Below, piece after piece: positions 9,941-34,041 of a DNA stretch of 64,000 nucleotides; position 1 is the first letter of the stretch; each line of letters begins with the position of its first letter. The notes under the pieces are model-generated. The model worked only from the letters and a program-made list of their open reading frames with translations. It was not told where the DNA came from and made no database searches. The stretch is from an uncultured Solibacteraceae bacterium (GTDB taxonomy: Bacteria; Acidobacteriota; Vicinamibacteria; Vicinamibacterales; SCN-69-37): positions 5,305 through 69,304 of the forward strand of contig CAYQRM010000136.1 in assembly GCA_964419785.1 (NCBI GenBank), in the 5' to 3' direction. The translations under genes were made by a program, and so were the position numbers.

Positions 9941-9941
9941 A

Positions 9942-13053: not shown

Positions 13054-13060
13054 GATGAGT

Positions 13061-13099: not shown

Positions 13100-13112
13100 G
13101 CTGCCCGTCGTT

Positions 13113-14477: not shown

Positions 14478-14494
14478 TCAATTACGATAATCGA

Positions 14495-14577: not shown

Positions 14578-14592
14578 CTCCCGTAATCCCGA

Positions 14593-17687: not shown

Positions 17688-17689
17688 TC

Positions 17690-18052
17690 GTGCCGACGCT
17701 CATCGCTCGTCCGACCGTGATTGCCGCCGCCGGGAACACACCGAAGATCATCGAAGAGTTCGCGGGCCGCGTGAACTCCGGACACAAGTCCGTCAGCGTC
17801 GCGCACATGGTCTCGCCCGAGGGTTGGGAAGAGCCGGGTCAGCGTCCGGAGTTCGAGGAAATCACCGTCGTGCTGCGCGGGCTGCTGCGTGTCGAACACG
17901 AAGGCGGCACGCTCGACGTCGCCGAGGGCCAGGCGGTCGTTGCCCATCCTGGCGAGTGGATTCGCTACAGCAGTCCCGAGCCGGGTGGCGCGGAGTACAT
18001 TGCCGTCTGCCTGCCCGCGTTTTCCTCGTCGACCGTGCATCGAGACGAATGA
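17690..18052 (+). CDS. Cupin-domain protein
   Basis: MPTLIARPTVIAAAGNTPKIIEEFAGRVNS; SPEGWEEPGQRPEFEEITVVL.G; GEWIRYSSP..GAEYIAVCLPAFS. Confidence 0.85.
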   Translation: MPTLIARPTVIAAAGNTPKIIEEFAGRVNSGHKSVSVAHMVSPEGWEEPGQRPEFEEITVVLRGLLRVEHEGGTLDVAEGQAVVAHPGEWIRYSSPEPGGAEYIAVCLPAFSSSTVHRDE

Positions 18053-18822
18053 TGTCGGCGCTGGCGATTGAGACATCACAACTGAGGAAAGCGTTCGGCG
18101 ATCTCGTCGCCGTCGACGGCATCGATCTCGCGGTGCCGCGCGGCAGTTTCTACGGATTTCTCGGGCCCAACGGCGCGGGGAAGTCCACCACGATCAAGTG
18201 CCTGACGGGGTTGATTCGCCCGACGAGCGGCACGTACCGAATTCTCGATATCGATCCGATCGCGCAGCCGGTCGAGGTGAAGCGACGCATCGGCGTCGTC
18301 CCCGAGGACCTGGCGCTGTTCGATCGTCTGAGCGGTGCGGAGACGCTTGCTTTCGTCGGGCAGGTGCACGGACTCGATGCGAAGAGCGTGCGCGAGCGGT
18401 CGACGGAACTGCTCGCGCTGATGGACCTCGCGCGCGCGAAGGACGATCTCGTCACCGATTACTCGCACGGCATGCGCAAGAAGATTGCGCTGGCGACCGC
18501 GCTGCTGCCCGCGCCGCGATTGCTCTTTCTCGACGAGCCGTTCGAGGGTGTCGATGCCGTGGCGTCGCGTCAAATTCGCGACCTGCTCGCACACTTCGTG
18601 AAGAGCGGCGGGACGGTGTTTCTCACGTCGCACATCCTCGAGATCGTCGATCGGCTCTGCGATCACATCGGCATCATCAGCAAGGGCAAGCTGGTCGCGC
18701 AGGGGCCGATCGCCGAGCTGCGCGGCGCGCCCGAATCCGGCAAGACACTCGAAGGACGCTTCTTCGAACTGGTCGGCGCCGACACCACGGCCGCGCCGGC
18801 GCTCGACTGGCTGTCGCGATGA
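18049..18822 (+). CDS. ABC transporter ATP-binding protein (ABC-2 type)
   Basis: Walker A GPNGAGKST, signature YSHGMRKK, Walker B LFLDEP, SH switch; ATGA overlap with cupin gene. Confidence 0.93.
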   Translation: MMSALAIETSQLRKAFGDLVAVDGIDLAVPRGSFYGFLGPNGAGKSTTIKCLTGLIRPTSGTYRILDIDPIAQPVEVKRRIGVVPEDLALFDRLSGAETLAFVGQVHGLDAKSVRERSTELLALMDLARAKDDLVTDYSHGMRKKIALATALLPAPRLLFLDEPFEGVDAVASRQIRDLLAHFVKSGGTVFLTSHILEIVDRLCDHIGIISKGKLVAQGPIAELRGAPESGKTLEGRFFELVGADTTAAPALDWLSR

Positions 18823-20564: not shown

Positions 20565-20678
20565 GGACGGGGCTTTTTTCCACAGATTTGGCCCAAAAGG
20601 CGCCGGAGGTCGGCCGGACACTTGCCTGCCGACCTCCGGTACCTGGCAAGCCGAATCTGTGGAAAAAAGCCCCGTCCC
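20564..20678. repeat. 115-bp nested palindrome (REP/MITE-like)
   Basis: Outer arms gggacggggcttttttccacagatttggc / gccgaatctgtggaaaaaagccccgtccc (28/29 match); inner arms ccggaggtcggc / gccgacctccgg. Confidence 0.85.
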
Positions 20679-20679
20679 C

Positions 20680-20708
20680 GAACCTTTTATACTTGTCGAA
20701 CGTCTACA
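20680..20708 (+). promoter_or_regulatory. ECF-sigma-type promoter (GAAC-N17-CGTCTA) with overlapping palindrome TGTCGA-ACG-TCTACA (candidate PadR operator)
   Basis: AAC 20681-20683, CGTC 20701-20704; identical spacing upstream of the two other ADOP genes. Confidence 0.6.
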
Positions 20709-20719
20709 GGAGAAGCGCA

Positions 20720-21055
20720 ATGGCCAAGAACTCGAAAAGTGACTTGTTGCAGGGCACCCTCGACCTGCTGATCCTCAAGACTCTGGCCCTCGGCTCGCAG
20801 CACGGGTGGGGCATCTCTCAGCGCATCCGTCAGATCTCCCAGGACGTGTTGCAGGTCAACCAGGGATCGCTCTATCCCGCCTTGCACCGGCTCGAAGAGC
20901 AGGGCTGGATCGCCTCGGAGTGGGGCACGTCGGAGGCCAATCGGCAAGCGAAGTTCTACAAGCTCACACGCGCCGGCGAGCGCCAGCTCGCGCGCGAGAC
21001 GGCGAGCTGGGATCAAATCTCAGCGGCCGTCGCACGAATCCTTCAGACCTCATGA
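20720..21055 (+). CDS. padR: PadR-family transcriptional regulator (acidobacterial type)
   Basis: LLQGTLDLLILKTL, HGWGISQRI, QGSLYPALHRLE..GWI..EWG, AKFYKLT..G; AGGAG RBS. Confidence 0.95.
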   Translation: MAKNSKSDLLQGTLDLLILKTLALGSQHGWGISQRIRQISQDVLQVNQGSLYPALHRLEEQGWIASEWGTSEANRQAKFYKLTRAGERQLARETASWDQISAAVARILQTS

Positions 21056-21079
21056 CCTAGCGGAAAGGACCATCCGATC

Positions 21080-23746
21080 ATGTGGACGCGACTTCGGCAG
21101 GGCCTGCGTTTCTTCCAGCGCGGCGATCGCATGCACGACGAGATCCACCGCGAAATCGCGTCGCACGTGCAGATGGAAATCGATCACCGCATTGCCGCGG
21201 GCGCGTCGCCAGACGAGGCGCGCCGTTCCACGCTGATCGACTTCGGCGCCGTTGTCGCCATCGAAGAACAAGTCCAGGATGTTCGCGGACTCACATTCTG
21301 GGATCACCTCACTCAGGATCTTCGCTACGGCTGGCGCACACTTCTCCGATCGCCGGGCTACACCCTGGCGGCCGTGCTGACGCTTGGCCTGGGCATTGGT
21401 CTGAACACGGCCATGTTCAGTGTCATCAACGGCACGCTCCTCCATCCGTTGCCGTACCGTGACAGCGGCCGCCTCATCCGCATCCGCCTCGACGCACCGC
21501 TCGCGAATCGTCCCAATCTCGGCGTGTCGATCGCTGAGACGCGCGACCTTCGCGCTCGCCTCACGGGCCTCGAATCCTTCGTCGAGTACCACTCGATGCA
21601 TTTCGTCCTGCTCAATCAGGGTGAGCCTCACCGCGTGAACACGGGGGTCGTATCGTCGCAGTACTTCGACGTGTTTGGTATCAAGCCCCTCTACGGTCGG
21701 ACGTTCACGGAGTCTGACGATGTGATGGGCGCCGAGCCGGTGCTGATTCTGAGCCACGCGTTCTGGCAGACCGAATTCGGTGGCGATCCCAACGTCGTCG
21801 GCAAGACCGTCCGGATGAACGATCACAGCCACACGATCGTTGGCGTTCTGCCGGCGATCCCGCGCTATCCGAATGACGACGACGTGTACATGCCGACGTC
21901 GGCGTGCCCGATGCGCGCCGGCGCCGAGCCGGACAGCCTTACTGATCATCGCGCGTTCTCGTTTCTCAACGTCTTCGGACGGATGAAGCCGGGCGAGACG
22001 CTCGCATTGATCAACGCCGAGGCGCAGGCCGCCGGGCGCAGCTGGGTGGTGGAAGACGCGTCGCAGTATCAGTTGCTGTCGGGCTTCACGGCGTCGGCCG
22101 TGTCACTCGACGAGGAGATTACCCACGAAGCTCGGCCGATCCTCTTCACGCTCATCGGCGTCACCGCGCTCGTGCTGTTGATCGCCTGCGCCAACGTCGC
22201 GAATCTCTCACTCTCGCGGATGCTCGGTCGCGGGCGCGAGCTGGCGCTGCGGTCGGCGCTTGGTGCGAGCCGAGGACGATTGACGCGACAGCTCGTCACC
22301 GAGAGCCTCATCGTCGCGTTCGCCGGCGCCGCGCTGGCGCTGGCGATTGCGTCACCGGCGGCACGACTGCTGGCCGGCTTCGCGAGCCGGTTCACACCGC
22401 GCGCGATTGACCCGTCGATCGATGGCGTTGTCCTCGGCTTCACGCTCGTGACGGCGCTGCTCACGGGGTTGCTTTTCGGCACGGCGCCATCGCTCAGCGC
22501 GCGCCGCGTCGTCATGACGGCGCTCAAGGACGGCGCGCCGCAGGGCGGCGAAGGCCCGCGCCGCCAACGTATGCGTTCGGTGCTCGTCGTCGCGCAAGTG
22601 ACCGTGTGCTTTGCGCTCGTCGTCGCCGCCGGATTGTTTCTCGAGAGCCTGCATCGGCTGTCAACCGTCGACCTCGGGTACACGGATGACGAGCACGTGC
22701 TCACGGCGCAACTGCACGGCAACTTCTCGCGTCAGATGGCGCAGACACCAGAGGAATTCGCCCAGTTCTACAACGCCGTGCTCGACGGCTTGAAGAGGAT
22801 TCCCGGAGTCATTTCCGCGTCGGTGACGAATGCGCTGCCGATGACCGGCGGCCCCGGTCCGTTGCCGCTCAGCATCCGTGGTCAGGCGATGCCGGAGCCC
22901 GCGCCTACAGTGGACGGCAACATCATCACAAGCGAATACTTCGCGGTCCTCGGCGTGCCGGTGATTCGCGGCCGGACGTTTGCTGCAACCGACAATGCCG
23001 ACGCTCCGCGCGTGGCCATCATCAATCAGTCGATGGCGAAGCTGTGGGACAAGCGCGATCCGATCGGCCACGAGTTCACCGTCCCGGTCGGCAACGGTGA
23101 CCCGGCGACGTTCCAGGTCGTCGGCATTGTCGGCGACATTAAGCAGTACGCGATCGATCAGCAGACCCTCGCTCAGTTCTTCGTCCCGATGGCCCAGGGG
23201 CCGAGATTTGGCGCGCAGGTCATGCTGCGCACGTCGCGCGATCCCCTGACGCTCGCTGGCGCGCTCAAGACGGTCGTCCACGGGCTCGACAACCAGATTC
23301 CGGTCGAAGACATCCAGACGCTGCGCGAGCTGCGGCTGACGCAGCTGCAGTCGCCTGCGCTCGCGACGGGACTGCTGTCGATGTTCGCGGCTCTCGCGCT
23401 CGTGATTACGCTCGCGGGTATCGCGGCCGTGATCGCGACATCGGTCAGCCAGCGCACGCGCGAATTCGGCGTGCGCATGGCCCTGGGCGCGAGCAGAAGC
23501 GCGGTGTTGAGCCTCGTTCTCGGTCAGGCCGCGCGGCTCCTGGTCATCGGGCTCGTGCTCGGCACCGGCGGCGCCCTCGTATTCAGCCGTGTGCTCGCGC
23601 AGTACCTCTTCAACACGCCGCCGAACGAGCCCGATATCTACATCGCGGTCGCGGCCATCGTGTTGGTCGCGGGAACCATCGCGTGCCTCGCGCCGGCGCG
23701 GCGCGCGACGAGGGTCGATCCGCTCATCGCGCTCAGGGCTGAGTGA
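21080..23746 (+). CDS. ADOP-family duplicated ABC permease (MacB-like) with N-terminal prefix domain
   Basis: [14 protein letters not shown], two RELALR.ALGA / [11 protein letters not shown] motifs, [13 protein letters not shown]; N-terminal [15 protein letters not shown] extension. Confidence 0.92.
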
Positions 23747-23748
23747 GG

Positions 23749-23862
23749 CTTGAAAGTCGAGAAGTCGAGAAGTCGAGAAGTCGGGAACTCGGGAAGTCGC
23801 AGCGAACACATGGCGCTGAGGCCAGCTTCACTCTTCAACTTCCCAACTTCTCGACTTTCAAG
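23749..23862. repeat. Inverted GAGAAGTC 8-mer arrays with perfect 17-bp terminal inverted repeats, between convergent ADOP genes
   Basis: cttgaaagtcgagaagt (23749-23765) / acttctcgactttcaag (23846-23862). Confidence 0.8.
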
Positions 23863-23882
23863 AACGCCTGGCTTCTCGGCCT

Positions 23883-26408
23883 TCACGAATTGCGCATCGC
23901 CTGAATCGGTGCGATGCGCGCCGCTCGTCTCGCCGGCAGCCAGCTCGCCAGCAATCCGGCCGAGGTGAGCACGCCGACGACGAGCGCGATGATCAGCGGA
24001 TCGGCGCCACGTCCCTGATAGACGACTGATCGCATGCCGAGCCCAGCGGCGAACGAAAGCACAGCGCCGACCACGAGTCCGATCATCGACCACACCAAAC
24101 CTTCGCGTACGACGAGCCACGTGACGCCAGAGGGTGTCGCCCCGAGCGCGATGCGGATGCCGATCTCGCGCGTGCGGCGCGAGACGATGTACGCTTTGAG
24201 GCCGTAGAGGCCGATCGTCGCGAGAAAGAGCGCCGCGACACCGAACGTGCCGAGGATCGCGGCGAACATTCGAACCAACAAGAAGAGATCGTTTTCCGCG
24301 CGCCAGCCCGCAAGCGTCTGCACGGCCAGAATCGGCAGGCCAGCATCCACCGATGTGATCTCGCGGCGCAATCCCGGAAGCAGCGCGCCTTCCTTCGCGC
24401 CGGCCGACGACGTCCGCACGTGCAGAAAGGCGTTCGATCGGAATGTCTGGCCGTACGGCACGTAGAGATGCGGCTCGGCGCTTTCCGCAAAGAGATCGTC
24501 CCGGACGCCGGCAGCAACGCCAACCACCTCGAGGACCTGCGGTGGCTTCGCGTGCGTGCTGTCGTCGAGCTGGATCGACTGACCGATCGCGTTCTCCGTG
24601 CCGAAAACCTTGCGGGCGAGCGGTTCGTCGATGATCGCGACGTTCGGACCGCGCTCGAGCATCTCCTCCGACGCCGTGAAGTCGCGCCCCGCGAGCAGAT
24701 TCAACCCGACGGACGAGAAGTAGTCATGCGTGATCGACGTGAATGTCGCGGTCGCGAGGCCCGCGGCGTTGCGCGCATCGTTCGGATCGATCTCGGGACC
24801 GGCTCTTTGCACCGTCTGACTATCCGACATGTCGCCGAAGGGCATGATTGACGCGAGGCTTGCGGAGGCGACCTCCGGGCGCGCGCGGACGCGATCGAGA
24901 ACGCGTCGATAGATGTCGCGCGCCCGCGCTTCGTCGTAGCCGGCAAGGTTCGTGTCCATCTGCACGAGGATGCCGCGGTCGAACGTGAAGCCGGGATCGG
25001 CGCTGGCCGACTCGACGGCGCCCCGAAACGCGACGGCCGCGAGCGTCAGCATGACCAGCGAGAACGCGAGCTGTCCGGTCACGAGCAGACTCGAGATCGA
25101 CAGCCGGCCGCGGCGTCCGCCAAGCTCGCCGGCCTGGTCCTTCAACTCTCGCCCGGCCTGCGTGCGCGCGAGCTTGAACGCCGGCAGCGTCGCGAACACG
25201 AGCGTGGCGATCACGCAGCTGGCCAGCGCAGCGATCACGGTCCGCAGGTCGGGCGTTGCGTCCACCATGAACATGACGGGTGTCACCGGCGTCAGCACGG
25301 CGAGGAGCGAGCGCACCGAGAGTGCGGCCAGTAGAAGACCTGCGGCTCCGCCCACGAGCGACAGCACGAAGCCTTCGATCACGAGCTGACGCACCAGCCG
25401 CGCGCGACTGCCGCCAATCGCAAGGCGGATCGCGAATTCCTTGCGTCGCGCGCCGCCGCGCGCGAGCAGCATGTTCGCGAGGTTGAACGACGCGATGACC
25501 AGCACGATGGCCGCCATGCCGAGAAGCATGGTGATCACGCCAGCGATCTCGCGATCCGTCGTCGGGCGCGTGCTGATCGAAAAGCGCGAAAGGGGCGCGA
25601 CAAGCAATTCCTGATCGCGATTCTCGCCTGAGGCGGTCGCGCGCTCGAGGCTCGCCGCCTGCAGCGCCGGCGTCAGGGACGCCATCGTCGCGCCCGGTTT
25701 CAACTGGGCGAGCACGATCAGGCTGTACCGCTGCCGGTCCCCGAGCGTCGTCCCCGCGCCGCCGCGCATCACGTCTTCCGTGATCGCGTCGTACACACCG
25801 GTCGGCACCCAGAGTTCCGGCGTCACGAAACCGAGCGATCCGCCGAAGCCTTGTGCCGCAACGCCGACTACGGTGAACGCGCGCCCGCTGAGGCGAATGG
25901 TCCGACCGAGGATGTCGGTGCGGGCGCCGAGCCGCCGCCACATGCCATCGCTCAAGACCGCGACGAAGATGTTGGCGCTGGGACGTTCTTCGTCAGCCGT
26001 GAACGTCCGCCCCAGCGCGACGGGAGCGCCAAACGTGTCGAAGAAGTTGGCCGTCACAACGTCGGCGAGCACGCGCCGCGTGCTGTTGCCCTCGGTGAGG
26101 CCGGCGAGCGTGAGGTTGTGGGCGGCGAGCGACGCGAAGAGGTCTGTCCGTGATCGCAGCTCGGCGTAATCGGGATACGAGAAGGCACGGTACCCGTCGG
26201 GATGCGTGCGGTCGCGCGTGTAGAGGCCCACGACTTCGCCGGCCGGCCGGCCCACTCGAGGCCGGAGCAGCAGGGAGTCGGTCAGCGAAAGGACCGTTGT
26301 CGTGGCGCCCGTGCCGAGCGCGAGGACCAACGCGGCCGCGGCCGTGAATCCGCGATGCCGAATCAGCAGGCGAAACGCATAGCGGACGTCTTGGAGAACC
26401 GAAGTCAT
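23883..26408 (-). CDS. ADOP-family duplicated ABC permease (no prefix domain)
   Basis: QDVRYAFRLL..HRGF, RRKEFAIRLAIG.SR.RL, RTREIGIRIALGA, PARRAARI.P. Confidence 0.92.
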   Translation of the reverse strand: MTSVLQDVRYAFRLLIRHRGFTAAAALVLALGTGATTTVLSLTDSLLLRPRVGRPAGEVVGLYTRDRTHPDGYRAFSYPDYAELRSRTDLFASLAAHNLTLAGLTEGNSTRRVLADVVTANFFDTFGAPVALGRTFTADEERPSANIFVAVLSDGMWRRLGARTDILGRTIRLSGRAFTVVGVAAQGFGGSLGFVTPELWVPTGVYDAITEDVMRGGAGTTLGDRQRYSLIVLAQLKPGATMASLTPALQAASLERATASGENRDQELLVAPLSRFSISTRPTTDREIAGVITMLLGMAAIVLVIASFNLANMLLARGGARRKEFAIRLAIGGSRARLVRQLVIEGFVLSLVGGAAGLLLAALSVRSLLAVLTPVTPVMFMVDATPDLRTVIAALASCVIATLVFATLPAFKLARTQAGRELKDQAGELGGRRGRLSISSLLVTGQLAFSLVMLTLAAVAFRGAVESASADPGFTFDRGILVQMDTNLAGYDEARARDIYRRVLDRVRARPEVASASLASIMPFGDMSDSQTVQRAGPEIDPNDARNAAGLATATFTSITHDYFSSVGLNLLAGRDFTASEEMLERGPNVAIIDEPLARKVFGTENAIGQSIQLDDSTHAKPPQVLEVVGVAAGVRDDLFAESAEPHLYVPYGQTFRSNAFLHVRTSSAGAKEGALLPGLRREITSVDAGLPILAVQTLAGWRAENDLFLLVRMFAAILGTFGVAALFLATIGLYGLKAYIVSRRTREIGIRIALGATPSGVTWLVVREGLVWSMIGLVVGAVLSFAAGLGMRSVVYQGRGADPLIIALVVGVLTSAGLLASWLPARRAARIAPIQAMRNS

Positions 26409-26414
26409 CCCATC

Positions 26415-26442
26415 TGAGACGGGGAAGAAGAAGGATTAGTTC
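26415..26442 (-). promoter_or_regulatory. ECF-sigma-type promoter GAAC-N17-CGTCTCA, 9 nt upstream of the ADOP start
   Basis: Minus strand reads GAAC taatccttcttcttccc CGTCTCA gatggg ATG; no SD sequence. Confidence 0.6.
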
Positions 26443-26455
26443 GAGAACCCGGTGC

Positions 26456-27682
26456 TTATCTCCTGTCGACGACGGTCTTTCCTCCCTTCATGACCCAGAC
26501 GACGTGGTTGATGACGACGTCGATATCGGCGAGTGGGTCGCCGTCGACAGCGACGATGTCGGCCCAGGCGCCGGGCGTGATGCGGCCGAGATCGGACGCG
26601 TGGCTGAGGAGCGCCGCGGGAATCGTCGTCGCGGTCTCGAGCGCTTGCGCAGGCGTCATGCCGGCCTTGATCATCCACCCCAGCTCACGCGTGTTCTGAC
26701 CGAACATCGAGTACACGGCATCCGATCCCATTGCGATTTTCACGCCGGCGGCGACCGCGCGCTTCGTCGATTCGAGATTCTTCGCGATGTAATCCTGGAG
26801 CGGGCCAATGGTGTCGGGCGCGAAGCCGTATTCGTCCTTCGCGTCCACGTAGTAGCGGTTGTGATCAATGGTCGGCACCCACACGGTGCCGCGCTTGACC
26901 ATATCGGCGATCGTCTCATCGTCGAGATCGATGCCGTGCTCGACGGAGTCGGCGCCGGCGCGCACGGCGTCCTTCACGCCGGACGGACCGTACGAATGAA
27001 TAGCGACTTTGTGTCCCAGCGCGTGCGTCGTATCGACGAGAGCCTTCATCTCGTCGAAGGTGACGGTTTGCGTCGTATCGACGCTCTCGAAGCTGCCGCG
27101 CGAGCCGTAGAGCTTGACCCAATCTGAACCGGCGTCCACGCGCGCCTTCGCCTGTTGGCGCATCGCGTCTGGATTCGGACCGCCGCGACCGGCCGAGATC
27201 CCCTGGCCGGCGACGAACATACGCGGGCCGATGGCGGTGCCGGCGTTGATCGCGTCGCGCGCGGCGTAGTCGAGGCCGCGCGACGCGCCGAGGTCGCGGA
27301 TCGTCGTCACGCCCGTCTCGAGTGTGCGTCGGCCGTTCTTGATCACGTCGTCAACAGTTGTCGGCGACGTGCGCCGGCCGCGCGGCTGCGTGCTCGGCGC
27401 GCCGTCCCAGTAGTACGTGATGTGCGTGTGCGCGTCGATGAGGCCAGGGATGGCCGTGTACCGGCGGAGATCGATGACGCTCGCGCCAGCCGGCACGGCT
27501 GTGTCGCCCGAGCTGACGCTCACGACGCGCTCGCCTTCGACCACGACCACGGCGTCTTGCGTAACGCGGCCGGTGCCGTCGACCAAGGTGCCGAATCGGA
27601 GGGCGGTCAGGGAGGCGTGCGGCGCATGGGCCAAGGGCGCGAAGAGACTTAGGGCGAGGGCGGAAAGCAGGGCGCTTCGCAC
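26456..27682 (-). CDS. Secreted metal-dependent amidohydrolase (Xaa-Pro dipeptidase-like, Amidohydro_1)
   Basis: PGLIDAHTH, GVTTIRDLG, WVK, VAIH, SVEHG, AMGSDA, ADIVAVDGDPL. Confidence 0.9.
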   Translation of the reverse strand: MRSALLSALALSLFAPLAHAPHASLTALRFGTLVDGTGRVTQDAVVVVEGERVVSVSSGDTAVPAGASVIDLRRYTAIPGLIDAHTHITYYWDGAPSTQPRGRRTSPTTVDDVIKNGRRTLETGVTTIRDLGASRGLDYAARDAINAGTAIGPRMFVAGQGISAGRGGPNPDAMRQQAKARVDAGSDWVKLYGSRGSFESVDTTQTVTFDEMKALVDTTHALGHKVAIHSYGPSGVKDAVRAGADSVEHGIDLDDETIADMVKRGTVWVPTIDHNRYYVDAKDEYGFAPDTIGPLQDYIAKNLESTKRAVAAGVKIAMGSDAVYSMFGQNTRELGWMIKAGMTPAQALETATTIPAALLSHASDLGRITPGAWADIVAVDGDPLADIDVVINHVVWVMKGGKTVVDRR

Positions 27683-27704
27683 GGAAGGGTCTAGGGTAAA
27701 CCTT

Positions 27705-27830
27705 AGAAGTTCGGGTGAATAGAGAACTGAGAAGTCCGGGTGAGCTGAGAAGTCCGGGGTGAGCTGAGAAGTCCGGGGTGAACTGAGAAGTCCGGGGTGA
27801 ACTGAGTCCGGGGTGAACTAAGAGGTCCGG
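27705..27830. repeat. Tandem array of 18-19-nt unit GAGAAGTCCGGGGTGAACT (about 6-7 copies), left flank of four-helix-bundle gene
   Basis: Units start at 27729, 27747, 27766, 27785, 27804, with partial copies either side; no unique spacers. Confidence 0.9.
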
Positions 27831-28243
27831 CGCCCCAGCCGTCTCGGGCGGCCCTTGCGTTTGAGGGCGCGGTCCTTGGCCGCCAGGGCGCACTGCGTGT
27901 GGTAGAGGTTGAGCGTCGCGCGGCGGCAACGCTGCGCCCAGACGAGCGCCGCGCGGCAGTCAGGTTCGATGAAGTGGCCGCGATCGATTCCGTCCTTCAC
28001 GTGCGTGACGGCTTCGCGGAGAGAAGCAAGCGAGTAGCGAAGGAACTGCGCGAACTCGCCGGCCTTGCCTCTCCCAAATCCTTCACTTGTCGTCGACGCT
28101 ACTCCAGCGGCCGCTCGGCGCAGTTGATCTGTGAAATCGAAATCCTTCCGCGCGCCTGGCGAGGCCTTGACTAGCGCGTAGACCTCGAGCTTGAACTCTT
28201 CAGCAAACTGATACGCGATGAGATCTTCAAGCGTGCGAGCCAT
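27818..28243 (-). CDS. Four-helix-bundle protein (TIGR02436 / 23S rRNA-IVS / Avd-like family)
   Basis: MARTLEDLIAYQ.A, DQLRRAA..V.S..SEGFGR....EFAQFLRYSLASL.E; start reassigned to ATG 28243. Confidence 0.9.
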   Translation of the reverse strand: MARTLEDLIAYQFAEEFKLEVYALVKASPGARKDFDFTDQLRRAAAGVASTTSEGFGRGKAGEFAQFLRYSLASLREAVTHVKDGIDRGHFIEPDCRAALVWAQRCRRATLNLYHTQCALAAKDRALKRKGRPRRLGRRTS

Positions 28244-28386
28244 GATCTTCAGCTGTGCAACTCGCACGCCCGATTCGCGAGTGAATTTCCGCCAGATTCT
28301 CTCGCGCGTCGCAATTTCTGCGATCTCGAGCGCCGCGTCGGCTTGCAGAAATCTCATCACCTCGTCGCGGACTTCTCGTTGCATTC

Positions 28387-28530
28387 TGGACTTGCCGGTT
28401 CACACGGACTTCTCAGCTTATCCGGGCTTCTCAGTGCGCTTGGACCTCTCAGTTCGCCTGGACTTCTCAATTCACCCGGACTTCTCGGTTCACTCCCGGA
28501 CTTCTTAGTTCGCCCCGGACCTCTTCGTTC
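28387..28530. repeat. Degenerate inverted array of the same 18-19-nt unit (GGACTTCTCAGTTCACCC, about 8 copies), right flank of four-helix-bundle gene
   Basis: Reverse complement of the 27705-27830 unit, e.g. cggacttctcggttcac, tggacttctcaattcacc. Confidence 0.85.
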
Positions 28531-28619
28531 TTTACTTTTTTCTTCTTGTGTGCAAAATAAGAAGTCCCGCCCGCCGGATCCCGGCTCGGGACCAGGCCGA
28601 AGCCAAACGAGAAGCGATT

Positions 28620-28660
28620 GACGAGCGCCGTCGGAGACGGTGGTCGTGTTTCGTGTTTTT
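28620..28660 (+). promoter_or_regulatory. Terminator-like hairpin in the leader of the GSIII gene (possible attenuator)
   Basis: acgagcgccgtc-gga-gacggtggtcgt followed by gtttcgtgttttt, about 60 nt before the start codon. Confidence 0.35.
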
Positions 28661-28717
28661 CACGAGCTCGCGCGGCGGTCTGCGACCTTGTCCCTGTGTT
28701 GTTTTCTGGAGGAAGCA

Positions 28718-30895
28718 ATGGGTTCGTCAGCGCTTCACGACGCCACGAAAGGCATCATTGATTGGGGAAAGAGCGGCGCCAAGTCCGCGCAGCCGCGCGC
28801 GAAGGCGACCGAAATTTTTGGCTCACTGACTTTCAACGACGACGTCCAGCGTCGCCGGCTGCCGCGCGACGCGTACAAGTCGTTGCGGCGCACGATCACG
28901 CAGAGCCAGCCCCTCGATCCCTCGATCGCCGACGTCGTCGCGACCGCGATGAAAGATTGGGCCATCGAGCATGGCGCGACCCACTACACGCACTGGTTCC
29001 AGCCGCTCACCGGCATCACCGCCGAGAAGCATGACTCGTTCATCGCGCCGTCGCCGGAGGGCCGCGCGGTCGCGGAGTTCGGCGGCAAGGAGCTGATCAA
29101 AGGCGAGCCCGACGCGTCGAGCTTCCCGTCTGGCGGCATGCGGTCTACGTTCGAGGCGCGCGGCTACACGGCGTGGGATCCGACGAGCCCACCGTGGCTG
29201 CTCGTCGGTCCAAACGGCACGACGCTCGTGATTCCGACGGCGTTCGTGAGCTGGACTGGCGAGTCGCTCGACACGAAGACGCCGCTTCTGCGCTCGATTG
29301 AAGCGCTGTCCAAGCAGGCGATGCGCATTCTGAAGCTGTTCGGCTCGAAAGCCGAGCGCGTCGCGACGACGTGCGGACCCGAGCAGGAGTACTTCCTGAT
29401 CGATCGCCACTTCTATTTCGCTCGGCCCGATCTCATCAACGCCGGTCGGACGCTCTACGGCGCGCGCCCGCCGAAGGGCCAGGAGCTCGAAGATCAGTAC
29501 TTCGGCCACATTCCCGAACGCGTGCTCGCGTTCATGCACGAGGTCGAAAACGAGCTCTACAAAGTCGGCGTGCCGGTGAAGACGCGTCACAACGAGGTCG
29601 CGCCGAGCCAGTACGAAGTCGCGCCGATCTTCGAGATGGCCAACGTCGCCACCGATCATCAGATGATGACGATGGAGACCATGCGCCGCGTCGCGCCGAA
29701 GTACGGCCTGGCGTGCCTGTTCCACGAGAAGCCGTTTGCCGGCGTCAACGGCAGCGGCAAGCACCTCAACTGGAGCATGAGCGACGACCTCGGGAACAAC
29801 CTGCTGAACCCCGGCGACACGCCGCACGAGAACATTCAGTTCCTCGTGTTCTGCGCGGCGATGCTGCTCGCGGTGAACAAGTGGCAGGGGTTGCTGCGCA
29901 TGTCGATCGCGAGCGCGGGCAACGATCACCGCCTCGGCGCGAACGAAGCGCCGCCGGCGATCATCTCGATCTTCCTCGGCGACATGTTGACGGACATCTT
30001 TCAGCAGATCGAGAAAGGCGGCGCGAAGCAGACCAAGAGCGGCGGCATCCTCGACACCGGGGTGTCCGTGCTGCCGAAGCTGCCGCGCGACGCCGGCGAC
30101 CGCAACCGCACGAGCCCGTTCGCGTTCACGGGCAATAAGTTCGAGTTCCGCGCCGTGTCGTCCAACCAGAGCATCGCGTTCCCGAATATCGCGCTCAACG
30201 TCGCCGCCGCCGACGCGCTCGATTACGTCGCCACCGAGCTCGAAGCCGCGGTCAAGAGCAAGAAGTCGATCGAGAAGGCTGTGAAAGAACTGCTGCCGAA
30301 GTTGATCAAAGACAACAAGCGGATCATCTTCAACGGCAACGGCTATGCCGACGAGTGGCGCAAGGAAGCCGGCAAGCGCGGGCTCCTCAACTTGACCAAC
30401 ACCGTCGACGCGCTGACGGAGATCGTCAAGCCCGCCGTCATCAAGACGTTCGAGAAGCACAAGGTACTCAACGACCGCGAGCTGCACGCGCGCTACGAAA
30501 TCGCGCTCGAGACCTACGTGAAGACCGTGAACGTCGAGGCGCAGTTGATGGTGCTGATGGCCAACCGCTACATTCTGCCGTCGGCGCTCAAGTACCAGAA
30601 GGACGTCGCCGAGTCGGTCGCGGCAGTCCGCGAGGCGGGCGGGTCGACGAGAGAGGCGAAGAAGCTGCTCGGCGAGATCGCGTTGCTCGTCGACGAGCTG
30701 CGGGTGCGCGCCGACAAGCTCGCAAAAGCGCTCGATCACTCCGCCGGGAGCGCCGAGAAGCACGCCAAATTCGTTCGAGACACGGTCGTGCCGGCGATGA
30801 CCGCGTTGCGTGAGACGGGCGATCAGATCGAGCTGCTGATGCCCCACGAGACGTGGCCGTTGCCGACGTACAGAGAAATGCTGTTCATCAAGTAA
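28718..30895 (+). CDS. glnN: Glutamine synthetase type III
   Basis: [93 protein letters not shown]; GGAGG RBS. Confidence 0.96.
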
Positions 30896-31020
30896 GTCGA
30901 GTAAGTCGAGAAGTCGGGAGGTCGAAAGGTCGAAAGGTTGCGAAGGCGATCTACTTTTTGACTTCTCGACCTCTCGACTTTTTGACTTCTCGACTTCCTG
31001 ATCTCTCGACTTCTTGACCT
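30892..31020. repeat. Inverted GAGAAGTC-type 8-mer arrays between convergent genes, no cargo
   Basis: Left gtaagtcga gtaagtcga gaagtcgg gaggtcga aaggtcga; right gacttctc gacctctc gacttttt gacttctc gacttcct. Confidence 0.8.
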
Positions 31021-31021
31021 T

Positions 31022-33442
31022 CTATTCGCTCTTAAGCACTGTCACAGGATCGGTCCTCGCCGCGCGGACCGCCGGAATCAGCGTGGAGATCGCCGCGCAC
31101 GCGAGGATTGCGAGCCCGCCCGCGGCCATTGGCGCCGGGGCAAGCGGTGATACCTGAAAGAGCACGCGCGAAAGCAGCGGACCGGCGGCAGTCACGAGCA
31201 GCCAGCCGGCCGCGAGTCCCGCGCCCGCGAGCACGAGGCCGTGCGTCATGACGAGGCGACCGATGTCCACTGGCCGCGCGCCAAGGCTCAGCCTCACCGC
31301 AAGCTCGCGCTGACGCGACGTGACCGTCCACGAGAGCAATCCGTAGATCCCCACGACCGCGAGTACGAGGGCGAGCACACCGAAGGCGATCAGCAGTCGC
31401 ATCAACAATCGCGGCTGGGCGCTGAGCTGTTCGAAGCGCGCGTCGAGCATCTGCACGCGATCGAGCGGCAGCGTGCTGTTGGTCTCGCGCAGCGTCGAAC
31501 GCAACGCCGCCTGCAGTCCCGCCGCGTCCGAGCCACGCACGGTGATATCGAGCGACCTGTACGGAAACTGACGCGTCGTGTGGAAGATCGCCGGCTCGAT
31601 CGGCTGGCCGGGCGGCGTGTTGGCCGTGTCGCCGACGACGCCGATGATCTCGAAGGGCTGATCGACCAGCAGGTTGCGGCCCATCGGTCCGATCACGGTA
31701 ACGTGCGATCGCAGATGCTGACCGACCGCGCGCTCGCCCGGAAAGAATTGCTTCGCGAACGCCGCGTTGACCACGACCGCGGCTTGCGCCGCGACGGTAT
31801 CGCGCGTCGTAAACAGCCGACCGTCGATGAGCGGCATCGCAAGCGTCTCGAAATAGCCGTCAGTCACCGAGAAGTGCTGCGCGATGGGTGCGTCTTCCGG
31901 ACGCCGGTTGGGCCGCCCGACGATGTCGAAGGCGATCCGCCAGCCAGGCTCGAACGGCAGAAACGTCGTCGCACCGGCCGCCGTCACGCCAGGCTTCTGC
32001 CGGAGCTGGTCCAGAAACGACGCGTAGAACGCGTCGACCTGCGCCCAATCGCTGTACGTCGGACCGGTCAGCTGCAGGTTCGCCGTGAGCACGCCGGCCG
32101 ACGACACGCCGCTCGGTACGGCCACGAGTGCGGCGACGCTCTTCACGAGCAGCGCCGACGCCGTCACGAGCGCGCAGGCCAGCGCAACCTCCGCGACCAC
32201 GAGCGAGCGATGCGCGAGTCTGCCGCTCGTCGTCGACGTCCGATCGCCGTCACGCAGCGTCGAGGCCCGTCGCTGGCGCACCATGAGCAGCGAGGGGACC
32301 AGGCCGAAGCCGAGCGTCATCGCCGTGATGATGCCGACAACGACGCCGGCGACGCGCCAGTTGAGCGACACCTGATCGAGCCGCGGAATCGCGACGGGCA
32401 TCGTCGCGACGAGCACCTGCACCAGTCCCCAGGCGAGGACCAAGCCAACGCTGCCGCCGACGACCGAGAGCGCGGCGCTTTCCGCGATGAGCTCGCGCAT
32501 CAGGCGCAGCGGCGACGCGCCAAGCGCGACGCGTACGGCAAGCTCACGGCGTCGATCGAGCGATCGCGTCAGCAGCAGGCCGGCGACGTTGAACGCGCCG
32601 ATGAGCATCAAGAGAAGGACGGCGCCGAGCAGCACGAGGAGCGCGGGACGATAAAAGCCGAGTTGGCTCTCGAGCAGCGGCATCACGCGCGTGCTCCACG
32701 CGTGATTGGTCGTCGGAAAGGCGGCGGCAAGGCGACTCGCGAGCGCGGCGGTGTCACGCCCCGCTTGCTCGACGGTGATGCCCGGCGCGAGTCGCGCGAC
32801 CGTCTCCATGAAGTGCGCGGCGCGGCTGTGCTGCGTCAGGTCCCACTGCAATCGTTCCCACACATCGACGTCGTCCGGAAATGTGAAGCGCGGCGGCATG
32901 ACGCCAACGACGGTGTACGGCGTGTCGTTCAGCCGGATCGGACGGCCGATGAGCCCGCGATCCGCGTTGTATCGCGCGCGCCAGAGGCGATCGCTGATGA
33001 CCGCGATGAGCTGTCGGTCGTAGAACGGCCCATTCGCAGGAAAGCCCGGTCCGACTTCAGGCGTGACGCCGAGCAACTGGAACAGATTCGCGCTGACCTC
33101 AATTGTCTTCACGCGGACCGGTTCGATCGCATCGTCGGTCAAGTTGACGTCCGGCCGCCACCATGCGGCGGCATCCTCGAACGTGCCGTGCATCGCGCGC
33201 ACGTCCATGAAGTTCACGGGCGACACGCGCTCCTGGCGCAGTCCCTTCTCGTAGTTCGTATCCCACAGCGTGACGAGGCGATCCGGCGCGCGAAACGGCA
33301 GCGGCTTCAGGACGACCCCATCGACGATCGTGTACACCGCCGCCGCCGCGCCGATGCCGAGCCCGAGCACGACGACGGTGAGCGTCGCGAAGGCTGGGTG
33401 CTGGCGGAACTGACGAAACGCGATGCGCAGATCGTGGAACAC
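31022..33442 (-). CDS. ADOP-family duplicated ABC permease (no prefix domain)
   Basis: HDLRIAFRQF..HPAF, RRRELAVRVALGASP, RQRELAVRLSLGA, PAVRAARTDP..VLK. Confidence 0.92.
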   Translation of the reverse strand: MFHDLRIAFRQFRQHPAFATLTVVVLGLGIGAAAAVYTIVDGVVLKPLPFRAPDRLVTLWDTNYEKGLRQERVSPVNFMDVRAMHGTFEDAAAWWRPDVNLTDDAIEPVRVKTIEVSANLFQLLGVTPEVGPGFPANGPFYDRQLIAVISDRLWRARYNADRGLIGRPIRLNDTPYTVVGVMPPRFTFPDDVDVWERLQWDLTQHSRAAHFMETVARLAPGITVEQAGRDTAALASRLAAAFPTTNHAWSTRVMPLLESQLGFYRPALLVLLGAVLLLMLIGAFNVAGLLLTRSLDRRRELAVRVALGASPLRLMRELIAESAALSVVGGSVGLVLAWGLVQVLVATMPVAIPRLDQVSLNWRVAGVVVGIITAMTLGFGLVPSLLMVRQRRASTLRDGDRTSTTSGRLAHRSLVVAEVALACALVTASALLVKSVAALVAVPSGVSSAGVLTANLQLTGPTYSDWAQVDAFYASFLDQLRQKPGVTAAGATTFLPFEPGWRIAFDIVGRPNRRPEDAPIAQHFSVTDGYFETLAMPLIDGRLFTTRDTVAAQAAVVVNAAFAKQFFPGERAVGQHLRSHVTVIGPMGRNLLVDQPFEIIGVVGDTANTPPGQPIEPAIFHTTRQFPYRSLDITVRGSDAAGLQAALRSTLRETNSTLPLDRVQMLDARFEQLSAQPRLLMRLLIAFGVLALVLAVVGIYGLLSWTVTSRQRELAVRLSLGARPVDIGRLVMTHGLVLAGAGLAAGWLLVTAAGPLLSRVLFQVSPLAPAPMAAGGLAILACAAISTLIPAVRAARTDPVTVLKSE

Positions 33443-33449
33443 CTACGGC

Positions 33450-33477
33450 TTGGACGGACGCTAGCGCTCAGGGGTTG
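33450..33477 (-). promoter_or_regulatory. ECF-sigma-type promoter CAAC-N17-CGTCCAA, 10 nt upstream of the ADOP start
   Basis: Minus strand reads CAAC ccctgagcgctagcgtc CGTCCAA gccgtag GTG; no SD sequence. Confidence 0.6.
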
Positions 33478-33486
33478 GGGGTCCTT

Positions 33487-33917
33487 GGAAATGAGGCAAT
33501 GGGGCAATGAGGCAATGCGTGAATGTGCGTCAGGTGCTGCGGTTTTCCCGGAAGGTCCGCCGAGCGGCGGCAAAGATTGCGCGGAGTTCGCTGGCCTCCT
33601 GCAGCGCTGCGTCGAGTTCGCTGGCGCTGACAGGGCACCTAGCAGGGATCGCGCCTGGTGTTGTAGCGAGTCGGGCGAGGACCGCCCTGGCTATCTCCAG
33701 CCACAGCACGGACTCATCGGCCTCTTCTGCCGGTCAATGCAATCGACATACCCAATGCCGTAATCGCGAAGCCAGGGCAATGAGGCCGCAGGGCAGAGAG
33801 CTAATGCCCGTCCTGAGCCGCGTGGCGGGATCGCAGAATCTGCGATCCCGCTCGCGTCCGCGCATTTGCATTTTCTGCCATTCACCAATTGCCCCATTGC
33901 CCCATTGCCTCATTTCC
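33487..33917. mobile_element. Putative non-autonomous element with 39-bp terminal inverted repeats made of GGCAATG(A/G) 8-mers, enclosing a decayed four-helix-bundle gene
   Basis: Left ggaaatgaggcaatggggcaatgaggcaatgcgtgaatg vs reverse complement of right arm ggaaatgaggcaatggggcaatggggcaattggtgaatg (36/39). Mobility is inferred, not shown. Confidence 0.55.
33530..33733 (-). pseudogene. C-terminal fragment of a four-helix-bundle protein
   Basis: Minus-strand frame reads PAEEADESVLWLEIA...LDAALQEASELRAIFAAARRT, preceded by an in-frame TGA (33734-33736); N-terminal half not recognisable. Confidence 0.75.
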
Positions 33918-34041
33918 CAGAATTCGGTGTCTAAGTGCAGAGAGCCGGAAGACAGCACGATGCGCGGCATTGCAGCGAGCCTGCATCCGGGGCCTGCTGC
34001 CACAGGTTCCGGTCCGCCTGCCGGCGTTGGCTGCTTCCGGC

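What the first reader, a model, noticed from the sequence alone, without database searches (positions are those of the whole stretch)
20680..33477. All three ADOP permease loci share an exact AAC-N17-CGTC promoter motif
Seen: GAAC-N17-CGTCTA before padR-ADOP (20680-20706), GAAC-N17-CGTCTCA before ADOP2 (minus, 26415-26442), CAAC-N17-CGTCCAA before ADOP3 (minus, 33450-33477). In the last two it sits 9-10 nt from the start codon with no SD, implying leaderless or very short-leader mRNAs. Established: AAC at -35 and CGTC at -10 typify ECF sigma promoters; the function of ADOPs is unresolved. Inference: the dispersed, expanded ADOP family forms one ECF regulon, probably an envelope-stress response. 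The motif was found post hoc, so it needs genome-scale testing.
Basis: partly seen in the sequence, partly recalled or inferred. Interest (0 to 1): 0.68.

Follow-up and report, generated by a model that had tools for sequence, protein, structure and literature searches.

The report
Conserved ECF-type promoter before ADOP permease genes
A two-part DNA signal typical of stress-responsive (ECF sigma) promoters sits in front of all three ADOP membrane-permease loci in this soil/wetland Acidobacteria fragment. It is kept in place in distant relatives while the DNA around it changes, so it is very probably a real promoter, but it covers only part of the family and only this bacterial lineage.

Summary
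(G/C)AAC-N17-CGTC lies 15, 9 and 10 nt before the padR, ADOP2 and ADOP3 start codons. These are the window's only three ADOP loci, and its only sense-oriented intergenic matches out of 27.

Comparison with relatives shows it is not a post-hoc accident:
- Six ADOP2 orthologs (50-89% aa identity, different upstream genes) keep GAAC-N16/17-CGTC, then 9-10 nt, then ATG, with no SD and an unconserved spacer.
- padR-ADOP1 orthologs keep it, overlapped by an invariant CTTGTCGAACGTCTA, probably a PadR operator.
- A 97% relative of ADOP3 keeps CAAC-N17-CGTCCAA around a diverged spacer.
- In total, 19 of 28 ADOP/padR transcription-unit starts in Vicinamibacterales relatives carry it, against about 3% expected per region.

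It is not family-wide. About a third of units in the lineage lack it, and some of these have TTGACA-type promoters. It is not enriched before 166 ADOP genes from other classes and phyla, most of which have ordinary SD sites.

No RNA data, no TSS and no cognate ECF sigma gene could be found, so "one regulon" and "envelope stress" remain untested.

Window ADOP3 has lost its padR and N-terminal prefix domain. Similar losses occurred in two other lineages, each leaving the motif next to the core ORF.

The parts
20603..20639 (+). Perfect 12-bp-stem hairpin (CCGGAGGTCGGC...GCCGACCTCCGG) after the upstream 578-aa gene. It looks like a terminator and separates padR from upstream transcription.
   Evidence: Read directly from the sequence. 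The upstream gene end at 20564 comes from L001 gene calls.
20680..20683 (+). Site 1, -35 element GAAC(C).
   Evidence: GAACC is kept at the same distance in padR-ADOP1 orthologs L084, L088 and L085.
20692..20708 (+). CTTGTCGAACGTCTACA block, covering the 3' half of the spacer and the -10 element; first 15 nt invariant in all four orthologs. A quasi-palindrome (TGT-N9-ACA) and putative PadR operator.
   Evidence: The first 15 nt (CTTGTCGAACGTCTA) are identical in window, L084, L088 and L085. A second, inverted copy lies upstream of the -35 in L084 and L085. The operator function is inferred.
20701..20706 (+). Site 1, -10 element CGTCTA, 15 nt (counted from CGTC) before the padR ATG.
20720..21055 (+). 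padR, an Acidobacterial PadR-family regulator.
   Evidence: TIGR03433 at 159.7 bits (cut-off 101.8) and PF03551.
21080..23746 (+). ADOP1, 888 aa, with an N-terminal permease prefix domain (residues 12-66). Same operon as padR.
   Evidence: TIGR03434 at 832 bits, NF038403 perm_prefix_1, and 2x MacB_PCD+FtsX.
26418..26442 (-). Site 2: GAAC (26442-39), 17 nt spacer, CGTC (26421-18). Putative ECF-type promoter of ADOP2. It starts 13 nt after the amidohydrolase stop codon (26458-56).
   Evidence: Kept in 6 orthologs with a diverged spacer and different upstream genes.
23883..26408 (-). ADOP2, 841 aa, with no prefix domain and no padR. The ATG is 9 nt after CGTC and there is no SD, so it is a candidate leaderless mRNA.
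   Evidence: TIGR03434 at 683 bits. The distance is 9-10 nt in 7 of 7 orthologs.
33450..33477 (-). Site 3: CAAC (33477-74), 17 nt spacer, CGTCCAA (33456-50). Putative promoter of ADOP3.
   Evidence: A 97% relative (L098-L101) keeps CCCCAACCC and CGTCCAAGC while the spacer differs at most positions. The same CCAACC...CGTCCAA variant stands before ADOP units in L104, L106 and L096.
31022..33442 (-). ADOP3, 806 aa. A core-only gene with a GTG start 10 nt after CGTC and an in-frame TAG immediately upstream.
   Evidence: TIGR03434 at 746 bits. Most orthologs at 77-89% identity are about 900 aa and carry the prefix domain.
33443..33924 (.). 482-nt segment that replaces the ancestral promoter, padR and prefix-domain coding region. 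It is bounded internally by 42-bp inverted arrays of CATTGCC-type repeats (33484-33525 and 33879-33920).
   Evidence: blastn against L097 shows homology stopping at 33925 and resuming exactly at 33442. L097 has 744 nt (promoter, padR, prefix) in its place.

Best explanation
In this Vicinamibacterales lineage, many ADOP transcription units are transcribed from a promoter recognised by an alternative sigma factor of the ECF type. These units are either padR-ADOP operons or stand-alone core ADOP genes. The promoter has a -35 of (G/C)AAC(C), a spacer of 17 nt (sometimes 16), and a -10 of CGTC(T/C/A)(A/C)A.

Where padR and the N-terminal prefix domain are absent (ADOP2 and its orthologs, window ADOP3, L102), the promoter abuts the ORF. 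Transcription should then start at or a few nucleotides before the start codon, giving leaderless or near-leaderless mRNA.

Where padR is present, a paralog-specific palindrome overlaps or follows the -10. This adds PadR autorepression on top of sigma-dependent initiation.

Shown: the motif, its geometry, its conservation, and its enrichment and specificity for ADOP/padR starts.
Inferred: that it is a promoter, that the sigma is an ECF, the TSS position, and PadR binding.
Not established: which sigma, whether it is one sigma or several, and the signal.
For: 1. Geometry and sequence match the ECF promoter signature of AAC at -35 and CGT(C) at -10 (PMC3426412; AAC/TC for Streptomyces sigma-E in PMC6767563).
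2. Phylogenetic footprint at ADOP2. Orthologs L082 (89%), L083 (69%), L084 (68%), L089 (67%), L085 (55%, N16) and L086 (50%) all have GAAC or AAAC, then 16-17 nt, CGTC, 9-10 nt and ATG. Only these blocks are conserved in the alignment.
3. The upstream gene differs between these loci. It is an amidohydrolase in the window, a divergent metalloprotease in L084 and L085, and a divergent GSIII in L089. An autonomous promoter is therefore required.
4. padR-ADOP1 orthologs keep GAACC-N17-CGTCTA.
5. The ancestral-type padR-ADOP3 in L097 has GAAC-N17-CGTCTAA, and L096 has CAAC-N16-CGTCCAA.
6. The 97% relative of ADOP3 keeps both blocks around a diverged spacer.
7. Loci picked without regard to the motif (L102-L107) carry it at 6 of 12 ADOP/padR unit starts. 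The best intergenic match not used for training lies before another PadR gene in L085.
8. Overall 19 of 28 starts carry it against 2.7% expected.
9. No sigma-70 consensus is found at the three sites. Other padR genes in the same lineage do have TTGACA-N17/18-TAnnnT, so two promoter classes coexist.
10. No Rfam family matches the region.
Against: - No transcript data exist for this organism, so no TSS is known.
- No ECF sigma or anti-sigma gene was found in the window or in about 340 kb of related loci (and the gene tables). The usual autoregulated sigma gene carrying the same motif is therefore missing from the evidence.
- At padR-ADOP1 the CGTC lies inside a 15-nt invariant block, so its conservation there may owe more to a repressor site than to sigma contact.
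- The CGTC-to-start distances of 13-18 nt (padR, L098, L102, L103) imply leaders of 4-9 nt rather than none.
- The ADOP3 start is GTG, a poorer leaderless start in some bacteria.
- Orthologs are not independent samples, so the binomial P-value overstates the significance.
Confidence: 0.72

Rival explanations
1. The two blocks are the binding site of a transcription factor (PadR itself or another regulator) rather than sigma contact points. The real promoter would lie elsewhere.
For: At padR-ADOP1 the CGTC lies inside the invariant block CTTGTCGAACGTCTA. A second, inverted copy of that block occurs upstream in L084 and L085. Palindromes accompany other padR genes as well.
Against: GAAC and CGTC are neither a palindrome nor a direct repeat. 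The motif is kept at ADOP2-type genes, which have no padR and no palindrome. The inter-block distance is fixed at 16-17 nt while the distance to the start codon ranges from 9 to 71 nt. In L085 only 40 nt separate the two divergent start codons, and the motif fills that gap, leaving no room for another promoter.
Confidence: 0.1
2. The motif is this lineage's ordinary (housekeeping sigma-A) promoter form, or a common variant of it, and not an ECF regulon marker.
For: No cognate ECF gene was found. The sigma-70 consensus scan finds essentially nothing in 40 kb of the window, so the housekeeping promoter form of this organism is not documented here.
Against: In the window the motif occurs in sense orientation in intergenic DNA only before the three ADOP loci, and not before the roughly 30 other transcription units (combined with the gene map). 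Related genomes have TTGACA-N17/18-TAnnnT before other padR genes. In about 293 kb of related sequence the high-scoring matches are ADOP/padR sites, apart from one coding-sequence site (though that scoring matrix was trained on these same sites).
Confidence: 0.1
3. The shared motif is a chance or post-hoc pattern among three short upstream regions.
For: The motif has only 7 fixed bases and occurs 27 times in the window. It was found after the fact.
Against: The three hits are the only sense-oriented intergenic ones. The motif recurs at the same place in orthologs with diverged spacers, and at 19 of 28 ADOP/padR unit starts in relatives against 2.7% expected.
Confidence: 0.02

Closest known systems
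ECF sigma-dependent promoters in general (Helmann 2002 signature, as quoted in PMC3426412), for example the Bacillus subtilis sigma-W/M/X envelope-stress regulons
   Same: Bipartite AAC at -35 and CGT(C) at -10, a spacer of 16-17 nt, and target genes that include membrane transporters. The overlap of similar motifs among paralogous sigmas (PMC6767563 discussion) would also fit the GAAC...CGTCT and CAAC...CGTCCAA variants seen here.
   Different: No sigma or anti-sigma pair has been identified, and no autoregulated sigma gene with the motif was found. No inducing signal is known. The lineage (Vicinamibacterales) and the target family (ADOP) have not been studied. The B. subtilis consensus sequences are recalled from my own knowledge and were not tested here.
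Streptomyces coelicolor sigma-E cell-envelope stress regulon (PMC6767563)
   Same: Promoters are defined by a conserved AAC (-35) and TC (-10). That regulon was defined by combining motif search with conservation across species, which is the logic used here.
   Different: There the evidence includes ChIP-seq, S1 mapping and in vitro transcription. Here the evidence is comparative sequence only.
ECF41 promoters, TGTCACA-n16-CGTC (PMC3426412)
   Same: The same CGTC -10 element and a similar spacer. It is also a lineage-wide association of one motif with one neighbouring gene family.
   Different: The -35 element is different (TGTCACA against GAAC). ECF41 targets lie next to the sigma gene, whereas here the targets are dispersed and no sigma gene is nearby.
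PadR-type autorepressed transporter operons (for example LmrR-LmrCD of Lactococcus; recalled from my own knowledge)
   Same: A PadR gene heads a transporter operon, and a palindromic site overlaps or follows the promoter.
   Different: The promoter here is of the ECF type rather than the sigma-70 type. The operator has not been verified. The permease has no ATPase partner in the operon.
Leaderless genes of Actinobacteria and Deinococcus-Thermus (PMC3160421)
   Same: The -10 element lies about 10 nt before the start codon, and there is no SD.
   Different: In that work the upstream signal is a TATAAT-like -10 element (from my own knowledge of the paper). Here it is an ECF-type CGTC, and no TSS has been measured.

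Membership tests
ECF sigma-dependent promoter | AAC in the -35 region and CGT(C) in the -10 region | tested here: met
   The blocks are invariant across ADOP2 orthologs when aligned on the ATG. The signature is taken from PMC3426412.
ECF sigma-dependent promoter | Fixed spacer of about 16-17 nt whose sequence is not itself conserved | tested here: met
   The spacer is N17 in 19 of the 22 motif-bearing sites (3 window, 16 relatives) and N16 in the other 3. Spacers diverge, most clearly between window ADOP3 and its 97% relative.
ECF sigma-dependent promoter | Transcription start a few nucleotides downstream of the -10 element | not testable with these tools
   No RNA run holds this sequence; only DNA metagenomes do.
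ECF sigma-dependent promoter | A cognate ECF sigma factor, usually autoregulated from the same motif and paired with an anti-sigma factor | tested here: inconclusive
   tblastn with RpoE and SigW, plus Pfam scans of small ORFs, found none in the window or related loci (gene tables). Only about 0.4 Mb of the lineage could be examined.
ECF sigma-dependent promoter | Specific to a defined gene set and not general | tested here: met
   In the window it occurs only before the three ADOP loci. In relatives it stands at 19 of 28 ADOP/padR starts, while the background rate is 1 hit per 2.9 kb of strand.
Leaderless mRNA | Promoter -10 element about 7-12 nt before the start codon, and no Shine-Dalgarno sequence | tested here: met
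   For ADOP2 the distance is 9-10 nt in 7 of 7 orthologs, with no GGAG-like sequence. For window ADOP3 it is 10 nt. It is 13-18 nt in padR, L098, L102 and L103, which implies short leaders instead.
Leaderless mRNA | The 5' end of the transcript coincides with the start codon | not testable with these tools
   No RNA data are available.
PadR-autoregulated operon | A PadR-family protein encoded as the first gene | tested here: met
   TIGR03433 at 159.7 bits against a cut-off of 101.8, and PF03551.
PadR-autoregulated operon | A palindromic operator at the promoter that is bound by the PadR | tested here: inconclusive
   A conserved quasi-palindrome, CTTGTCGAACGTCTACA, is present, with a second inverted copy in L084 and L085. 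CTATG-N10-CATAG occurs in the ADOP3-type loci. Binding was not tested.
ADOP family (TIGR03434) | Full-length match above the curated cut-off, with duplicated MacB_PCD+FtsX architecture | tested here: met
   Scores of 832, 683 and 746 bits against a cut-off of 622, with 2x PF12704 and 2x PF02687 in each protein.

The most novel reading that the evidence does not exclude
padR and the N-terminal 'permease prefix' domain may form one detachable regulatory module, for example a PadR repressor whose release is controlled by the cytoplasmic prefix domain of its own permease.

This module has been lost at least three separate times in Vicinamibacterales:
- the ADOP2 clade, compared with L087;
- window ADOP3, compared with L097;
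- L102, compared with its 78%-identical ortholog in L105.

Each loss left the bare core ORF directly behind an ECF-type promoter as a leaderless or near-leaderless gene. On this reading, ADOP paralogs are repeatedly moved from local, ligand-type control to pure sigma-factor control, and the expanded family is partitioned among regulatory regimes.
Probability: 0.2. Interest if true: 0.65.

Novelty: new member of a known kind. Interest (0 to 1): 0.5.

Why it matters
ADOP permeases are among the most expanded gene families in Acidobacteriota. The searchable literature contains essentially nothing on their function or regulation: two full-text searches returned only two incidental mentions.

A conserved alternative-sigma promoter in front of half to two-thirds of the ADOP units in one order gives a concrete experimental handle. 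The steps are to find the ECF sigma whose own gene carries GAAC-N17-CGTC, find its anti-sigma factor or signal, and so learn when these permeases are made.

The finding also predicts leaderless translation of large membrane proteins in Acidobacteria. Finally, it shows that the regulation of this family is lineage-specific, not a property of the family as a whole.

Tried and rejected
- Family-wide test. I collected 80 genome loci with 166 further ADOP genes from Terriglobia, Blastocatellia, Bryobacterales, Verrucomicrobiota, Gemmatimonadota and others. The exact motif was found upstream of the core in only 4, three of them inside prefix-domain coding sequence. A looser AAC-N15-19-CGT pattern gave 12 hits in 99 regions against about 8 expected by my own rough estimate. 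About 28 padR genes of other classes mostly show TTGACA-type promoters with palindromes. I therefore rejected the idea that the motif belongs to the ADOP family as such.
- RNA evidence. No RNA run holds the sequence; only wetland, rhizosphere and soil DNA metagenomes do.
- Cognate sigma. tblastn with E. coli RpoE and B. subtilis SigW (sequences written from memory), plus two Pfam scans of 20 further window ORFs, found none.
- Known RNA elements and tRNAs. None were found.
- Sigma-70 consensus at the three sites. None was found.
- Site 3 as the retained ancestral padR promoter fused to the core by deletion. blastn shows that the 482 nt between 33443 and 33924 have no detectable homology to the ancestral-type locus L097. 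Beyond the motif itself this idea cannot be shown or excluded.
- Splitting the sites into two sub-motifs (GAAC...CGTCT and CCAACC...CGTC[C/A]AA) recognised by two sigmas. Orthologs L097 and L096 carry different variants, so I did not split them.
- The position weight matrix scan was trained on the same sites. I used it only to look for additional, non-ADOP hits and not as evidence of enrichment.
Full report
**What is in the window**

The three sites are exactly as described.
- Site 1, plus strand: GAAC 20680-83, a 17-nt spacer, CGTCTA 20701-06, then 15 nt from CGTC (13 from CGTCTA) to the padR ATG at 20720. AGGAG lies at 20708-12.
- Site 2, minus strand: GAAC 26442-39, 17 nt, CGTC 26421-18, then 9 nt (TCAGATGGG) to the ATG at 26408.
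- Site 3, minus strand: CAAC 33477-74, 17 nt, CGTCCAA 33456-50, then GTG at 33442, preceded directly by an in-frame TAG.

The downstream genes are the only ADOP genes in the 64 kb (tblastn). They score 832, 683 and 746 bits on TIGR03434 against a cut-off of 622. Each has two MacB_PCD+FtsX units.

padR is TIGR03433. Only ADOP1 has the N-terminal permease prefix domain NF038403.

Names attached to homologs place the organism in Vicinamibacterales. The DNA is found in wetland, rhizosphere and soil metagenomes.

**Is it more than chance within the window?**

AAC-N17-CGTC has 7 fixed bases and occurs 27 times, against 15.5 +/- 4 expected.

I set these 27 hits against the gene map. The 24 other hits lie inside coding sequence or are antisense to the neighbouring genes. 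The three ADOP sites are the only sense-oriented intergenic hits.

That is suggestive, but the motif was found post hoc, so the real test has to come from other sequences.

**Test 1: the family at large (negative)**

A scan of one genome per species returned 80 loci with 166 further ADOP genes. These came from Terriglobia, Blastocatellia, Bryobacterales, Thermoanaerobaculia, Verrucomicrobiota, Gemmatimonadota and others.

The exact motif is upstream of the core in 4 of them, and 3 of those hits lie inside prefix-domain coding sequence. A looser pattern is not enriched.

Most of these genes have a plain GGAGG-type SD 5-10 nt before an ATG. Many sit in tandem arrays behind another ADOP.

padR genes of other classes mostly show TTGACA-N17-TAnnnT promoters with paralog-specific palindromes.

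So the motif is not a property of the ADOP family as such.

**Test 2: orthologs of the three window loci (positive)**

*ADOP2.* A metagenome scan with ADOP2 returned orthologs at 50-89% identity.

Six distinct orthologs all have GAAC (AAAC in L089), a 17-nt spacer (16 in L085), CGTC, 9-10 nt and then ATG. They are L082 (89%), L083 (69%), L084 (68%), L089 (67%), L085 (55%) and L086, which is the same as L088 (50%).

None has an SD. In an alignment anchored on the ATG, only these blocks are conserved.

The upstream gene is not conserved. It is an amidohydrolase 47 nt away in the window, a divergent DUF5117/DUF4953-type metalloprotease in L084 and L085, and a divergent GSIII in L089.

In L085 only 40 nt separate the two divergent start codons. 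These genes therefore need their own promoter, and the motif is the only conserved candidate.

*padR-ADOP1.* The motif GAACC-N17-CGTCTA is kept in L084 (PadR 86% identical), L088 (69%) and L085. In L085 the ADOP1 ortholog has no padR.

Here the 3' half of the spacer and the -10 lie in the block CTTGTCGAACGTCTACA, whose first 15 nt are invariant in all four sequences. It is a TGT-N9-ACA quasi-palindrome.

L084 and L085 have a second, inverted copy just upstream of the -35. I read this as a PadR operator laid over the promoter. That reading is inferred.

*ADOP3.* Most orthologs at 77-89% identity are about 900 aa long and are preceded by padR.
- In L097 (89%), GAAC-N17-CGTCTAA lies 39 nt before the padR ATG. 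It is followed by the palindrome CTATGGATTTCAATACATAG.
- L096 (80%) has CAAC-N16-CGTCCAA.

In the window, blastn shows that 33443-33924 replaces the ancestral promoter, padR and prefix-coding region. The replaced stretch is 744 nt in L097.

Homology resumes exactly at the GTG. The inserted segment contains 42-bp inverted arrays of CATTGCC-type repeats.

Site 3 lies in the 41 nt between the inner array and the GTG.

A 97%-identical relative (L098-L101) keeps CCCCAACCC and CGTCCAAGC. Its 17-nt spacer differs at most positions, and the distance to GTG is 14 nt instead of 10.

The same CCAACC...CGTCCAA variant stands before ADOP units in L104 and L106. Site 3 is therefore very probably functional too.

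**Test 3: further Vicinamibacterales loci, chosen by protein and contig length only**

These are L102-L107. Six of their 12 ADOP/padR unit starts carry the motif.

| Locus and unit | Motif | Distance to ATG (nt) |
|---|---|---|
| L102 core ADOP | GAAC-N16-CGTCTCA | 18 |
| L103 padR | CAAC-N17-CGTCAAA | 17 |
| L103 ADOP1434 | AAAC-N17-CGTCTAA | 13 |
| L104 | CAAC-N17-CGTCCAA | 71, SD present |
| L106 padR | CAAC-N17-CGTCCAA | 40 |
| L107 padR | CAAC-N17-CGTCAAA | 45 |

The best intergenic match in these loci that was not used for training lies before another PadR-family gene in L085. It is followed by the palindrome TGCTAATGATATTAGCA.

Units without the motif include several with TTGACA-N17/18-TAnnnT plus palindromes (L087, the second padR of L096, L107). 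Two promoter classes therefore coexist in the lineage.

**Totals outside the window**

| Spacer allowed | Unit starts with motif | Expected per 100-nt region |
|---|---|---|
| N17 only | 16 of 28 | 1.6% |
| N16-17 | 19 of 28 | 2.7% |

The binomial tail for the first 22 starts is 2e-20 (N17) and 4e-23 (N16-17). These values overstate independence because orthologs share ancestry. Even so, at least six or seven paralog groups are involved, and the spacers have diverged.

**Interpretation**

Two short blocks at a fixed 16-17 nt distance, with a free spacer and a variable distance to the start codon (9-71 nt), are what a bipartite promoter looks like.

AAC at -35 and CGT(C) at -10 is the textbook ECF signature. 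It is quoted in PMC3426412, and Streptomyces sigma-E promoters are defined by AAC and TC (PMC6767563).

No sigma-70 consensus is found at the sites. No Rfam family matches.

For ADOP2-type genes the constant 9-10 nt to the ATG and the lack of an SD fit a transcript that starts at or next to the start codon. For padR, L098, L102 and L103, leaders of about 4-9 nt are implied instead.

I put about 0.72 on [quoted passage not shown]. I put about 0.6 on leaderless ADOP2 mRNA. I put no more than 0.3 on a single sigma or an envelope-stress signal.

**What is missing**

There is no TSS, because no RNA runs hold this sequence.

No cognate sigma was found. None is in the window or in about 0.4 Mb of related loci (and the gene tables).

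The rival that this is a transcription-factor site is weak. The blocks are not symmetric, and they persist where there is no padR and no palindrome.

The rival that this is the lineage's housekeeping promoter is weakened by its restriction to ADOP/padR starts and by the TTGACA-type promoters in the same lineage. It is not excluded.

**An evolutionary pattern seen on the way**

Across all loci, ADOPs without a long N-terminal extension never have padR upstream (0 of 122). Those with an extension have padR in 22 of 39 cases; several of the rest follow another prefix-bearing ADOP, as in L063 and L079.

The padR-plus-prefix pair has been lost at least three times in Vicinamibacterales:
- the ADOP2 clade, compared with the amidohydrolase-linked padR-prefix-ADOP of L087;
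- window ADOP3, compared with L097;
- L102, compared with L105, whose proteins are 78% identical over the core, which begins at residue 97 of the longer protein.

Each time, the truncated gene begins 3-6 residues before the conserved D(L/V)R(Y/I)AFR motif (LRQAFR in L102). It has the ECF-type motif 9-18 nt upstream.

**Verdict**

The promoter and short-leader reading is supported by comparative evidence. The scope is narrower than claimed, covering one lineage and roughly half to two-thirds of its ADOP units.

The sigma factor and the signal are unknown.

It is a new member of a known kind of system, of moderate interest. Its main value is that it gives the first regulatory handle on a large, uncharacterised gene family.

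Noticed in passing
window 33443-33924 (inverted arrays at 33484-33525 and 33879-33920): A 482-nt segment bounded by inverted arrays of CATTGCC-type repeats replaces the ancestral promoter, padR and prefix-domain coding region of ADOP3. In a 95% relative, a gene with a faint 23S_rRNA_IVP hit is called in the equivalent spacer.
   Followed up: yes
window 23754-23799, 30894-31023, 3752-3788, 9237-9469, 9940-10174, 14498-14582, 36431-36485; many loci among L002-L095: Tandem arrays of 7-9-nt units are common in intergenic DNA of Acidobacteriota loci. They usually occur as two arrays in inverted orientation, forming long imperfect hairpins. They lie between convergent genes, flank small PDDEXK_3 and four-helix-bundle genes, and often sit just upstream of ADOP starts (54 of 299 arrays lie within 200 nt of an ADOP core start). 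Their function is unknown; they could be terminators or a REP/MITE-like element.
   Followed up: partly
all loci; window 20720-23746 compared with 23883-26408 and 31022-33442: padR and the N-terminal permease prefix domain co-occur. padR is found upstream of 0 of 122 ADOPs without an N-terminal extension and of 22 of 39 with one. The pair appears to have been lost together at least three times in Vicinamibacterales.
   Followed up: partly
window 17824-18822 and 18828-20564 (+): An ABC-transporter ATPase ORF (PF00005) and a 578-aa protein with no family hit lie directly upstream of padR-ADOP1, separated from it by a hairpin. The order ATPase, hypothetical, padR, ADOP1 is conserved in L084. This is notable because ADOPs are called 'orphan' for lacking an ATPase partner.
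   Followed up: partly
L084 about 15745-15790 and L085 about 13345-13390 (minus strand); window 20692-20708: The operator-like block CTTGTCG-NNN-GTCTACA(AG) occurs twice in L084 and L085, in inverted orientation, bracketing the -35 element. In the window and in L088 it occurs only once, over the -10.
   Followed up: partly
L102 18313-18340 and L105 20292-20319: GAAC-N17-CGTCAC lies about 90 nt upstream of a CarboxypepD_reg/OMP_b-brl_4 outer-membrane receptor gene in two related genomes. This may be a non-ADOP member of the same promoter class. The window's homolog (42776-45715) instead has TTGACA-N17-TGAAAT upstream.
   Followed up: no
L011, L022, L023, L033 (Bryobacteraceae), upstream of the matched ADOP: A different bipartite signal, GTAAC-N17-ish-GTAT(A/T)A, lies 6-8 nt before the ATG, with no SD. 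L002 has GAAC-N17-CGTA just before an in-frame ATG. Near-leaderless ADOP genes with other ECF-like motifs may therefore exist in other orders.
   Followed up: no
L096 (ENA contig_31726), genes at 12486-14666 and 17268-19942: GSIII and one ADOP are each split into two ORFs, and padR is truncated. This looks like frameshift errors in a long-read assembly, so the 806-aa call for the ADOP3 ortholog there is probably an artefact rather than a real loss of the prefix.
   Followed up: partly
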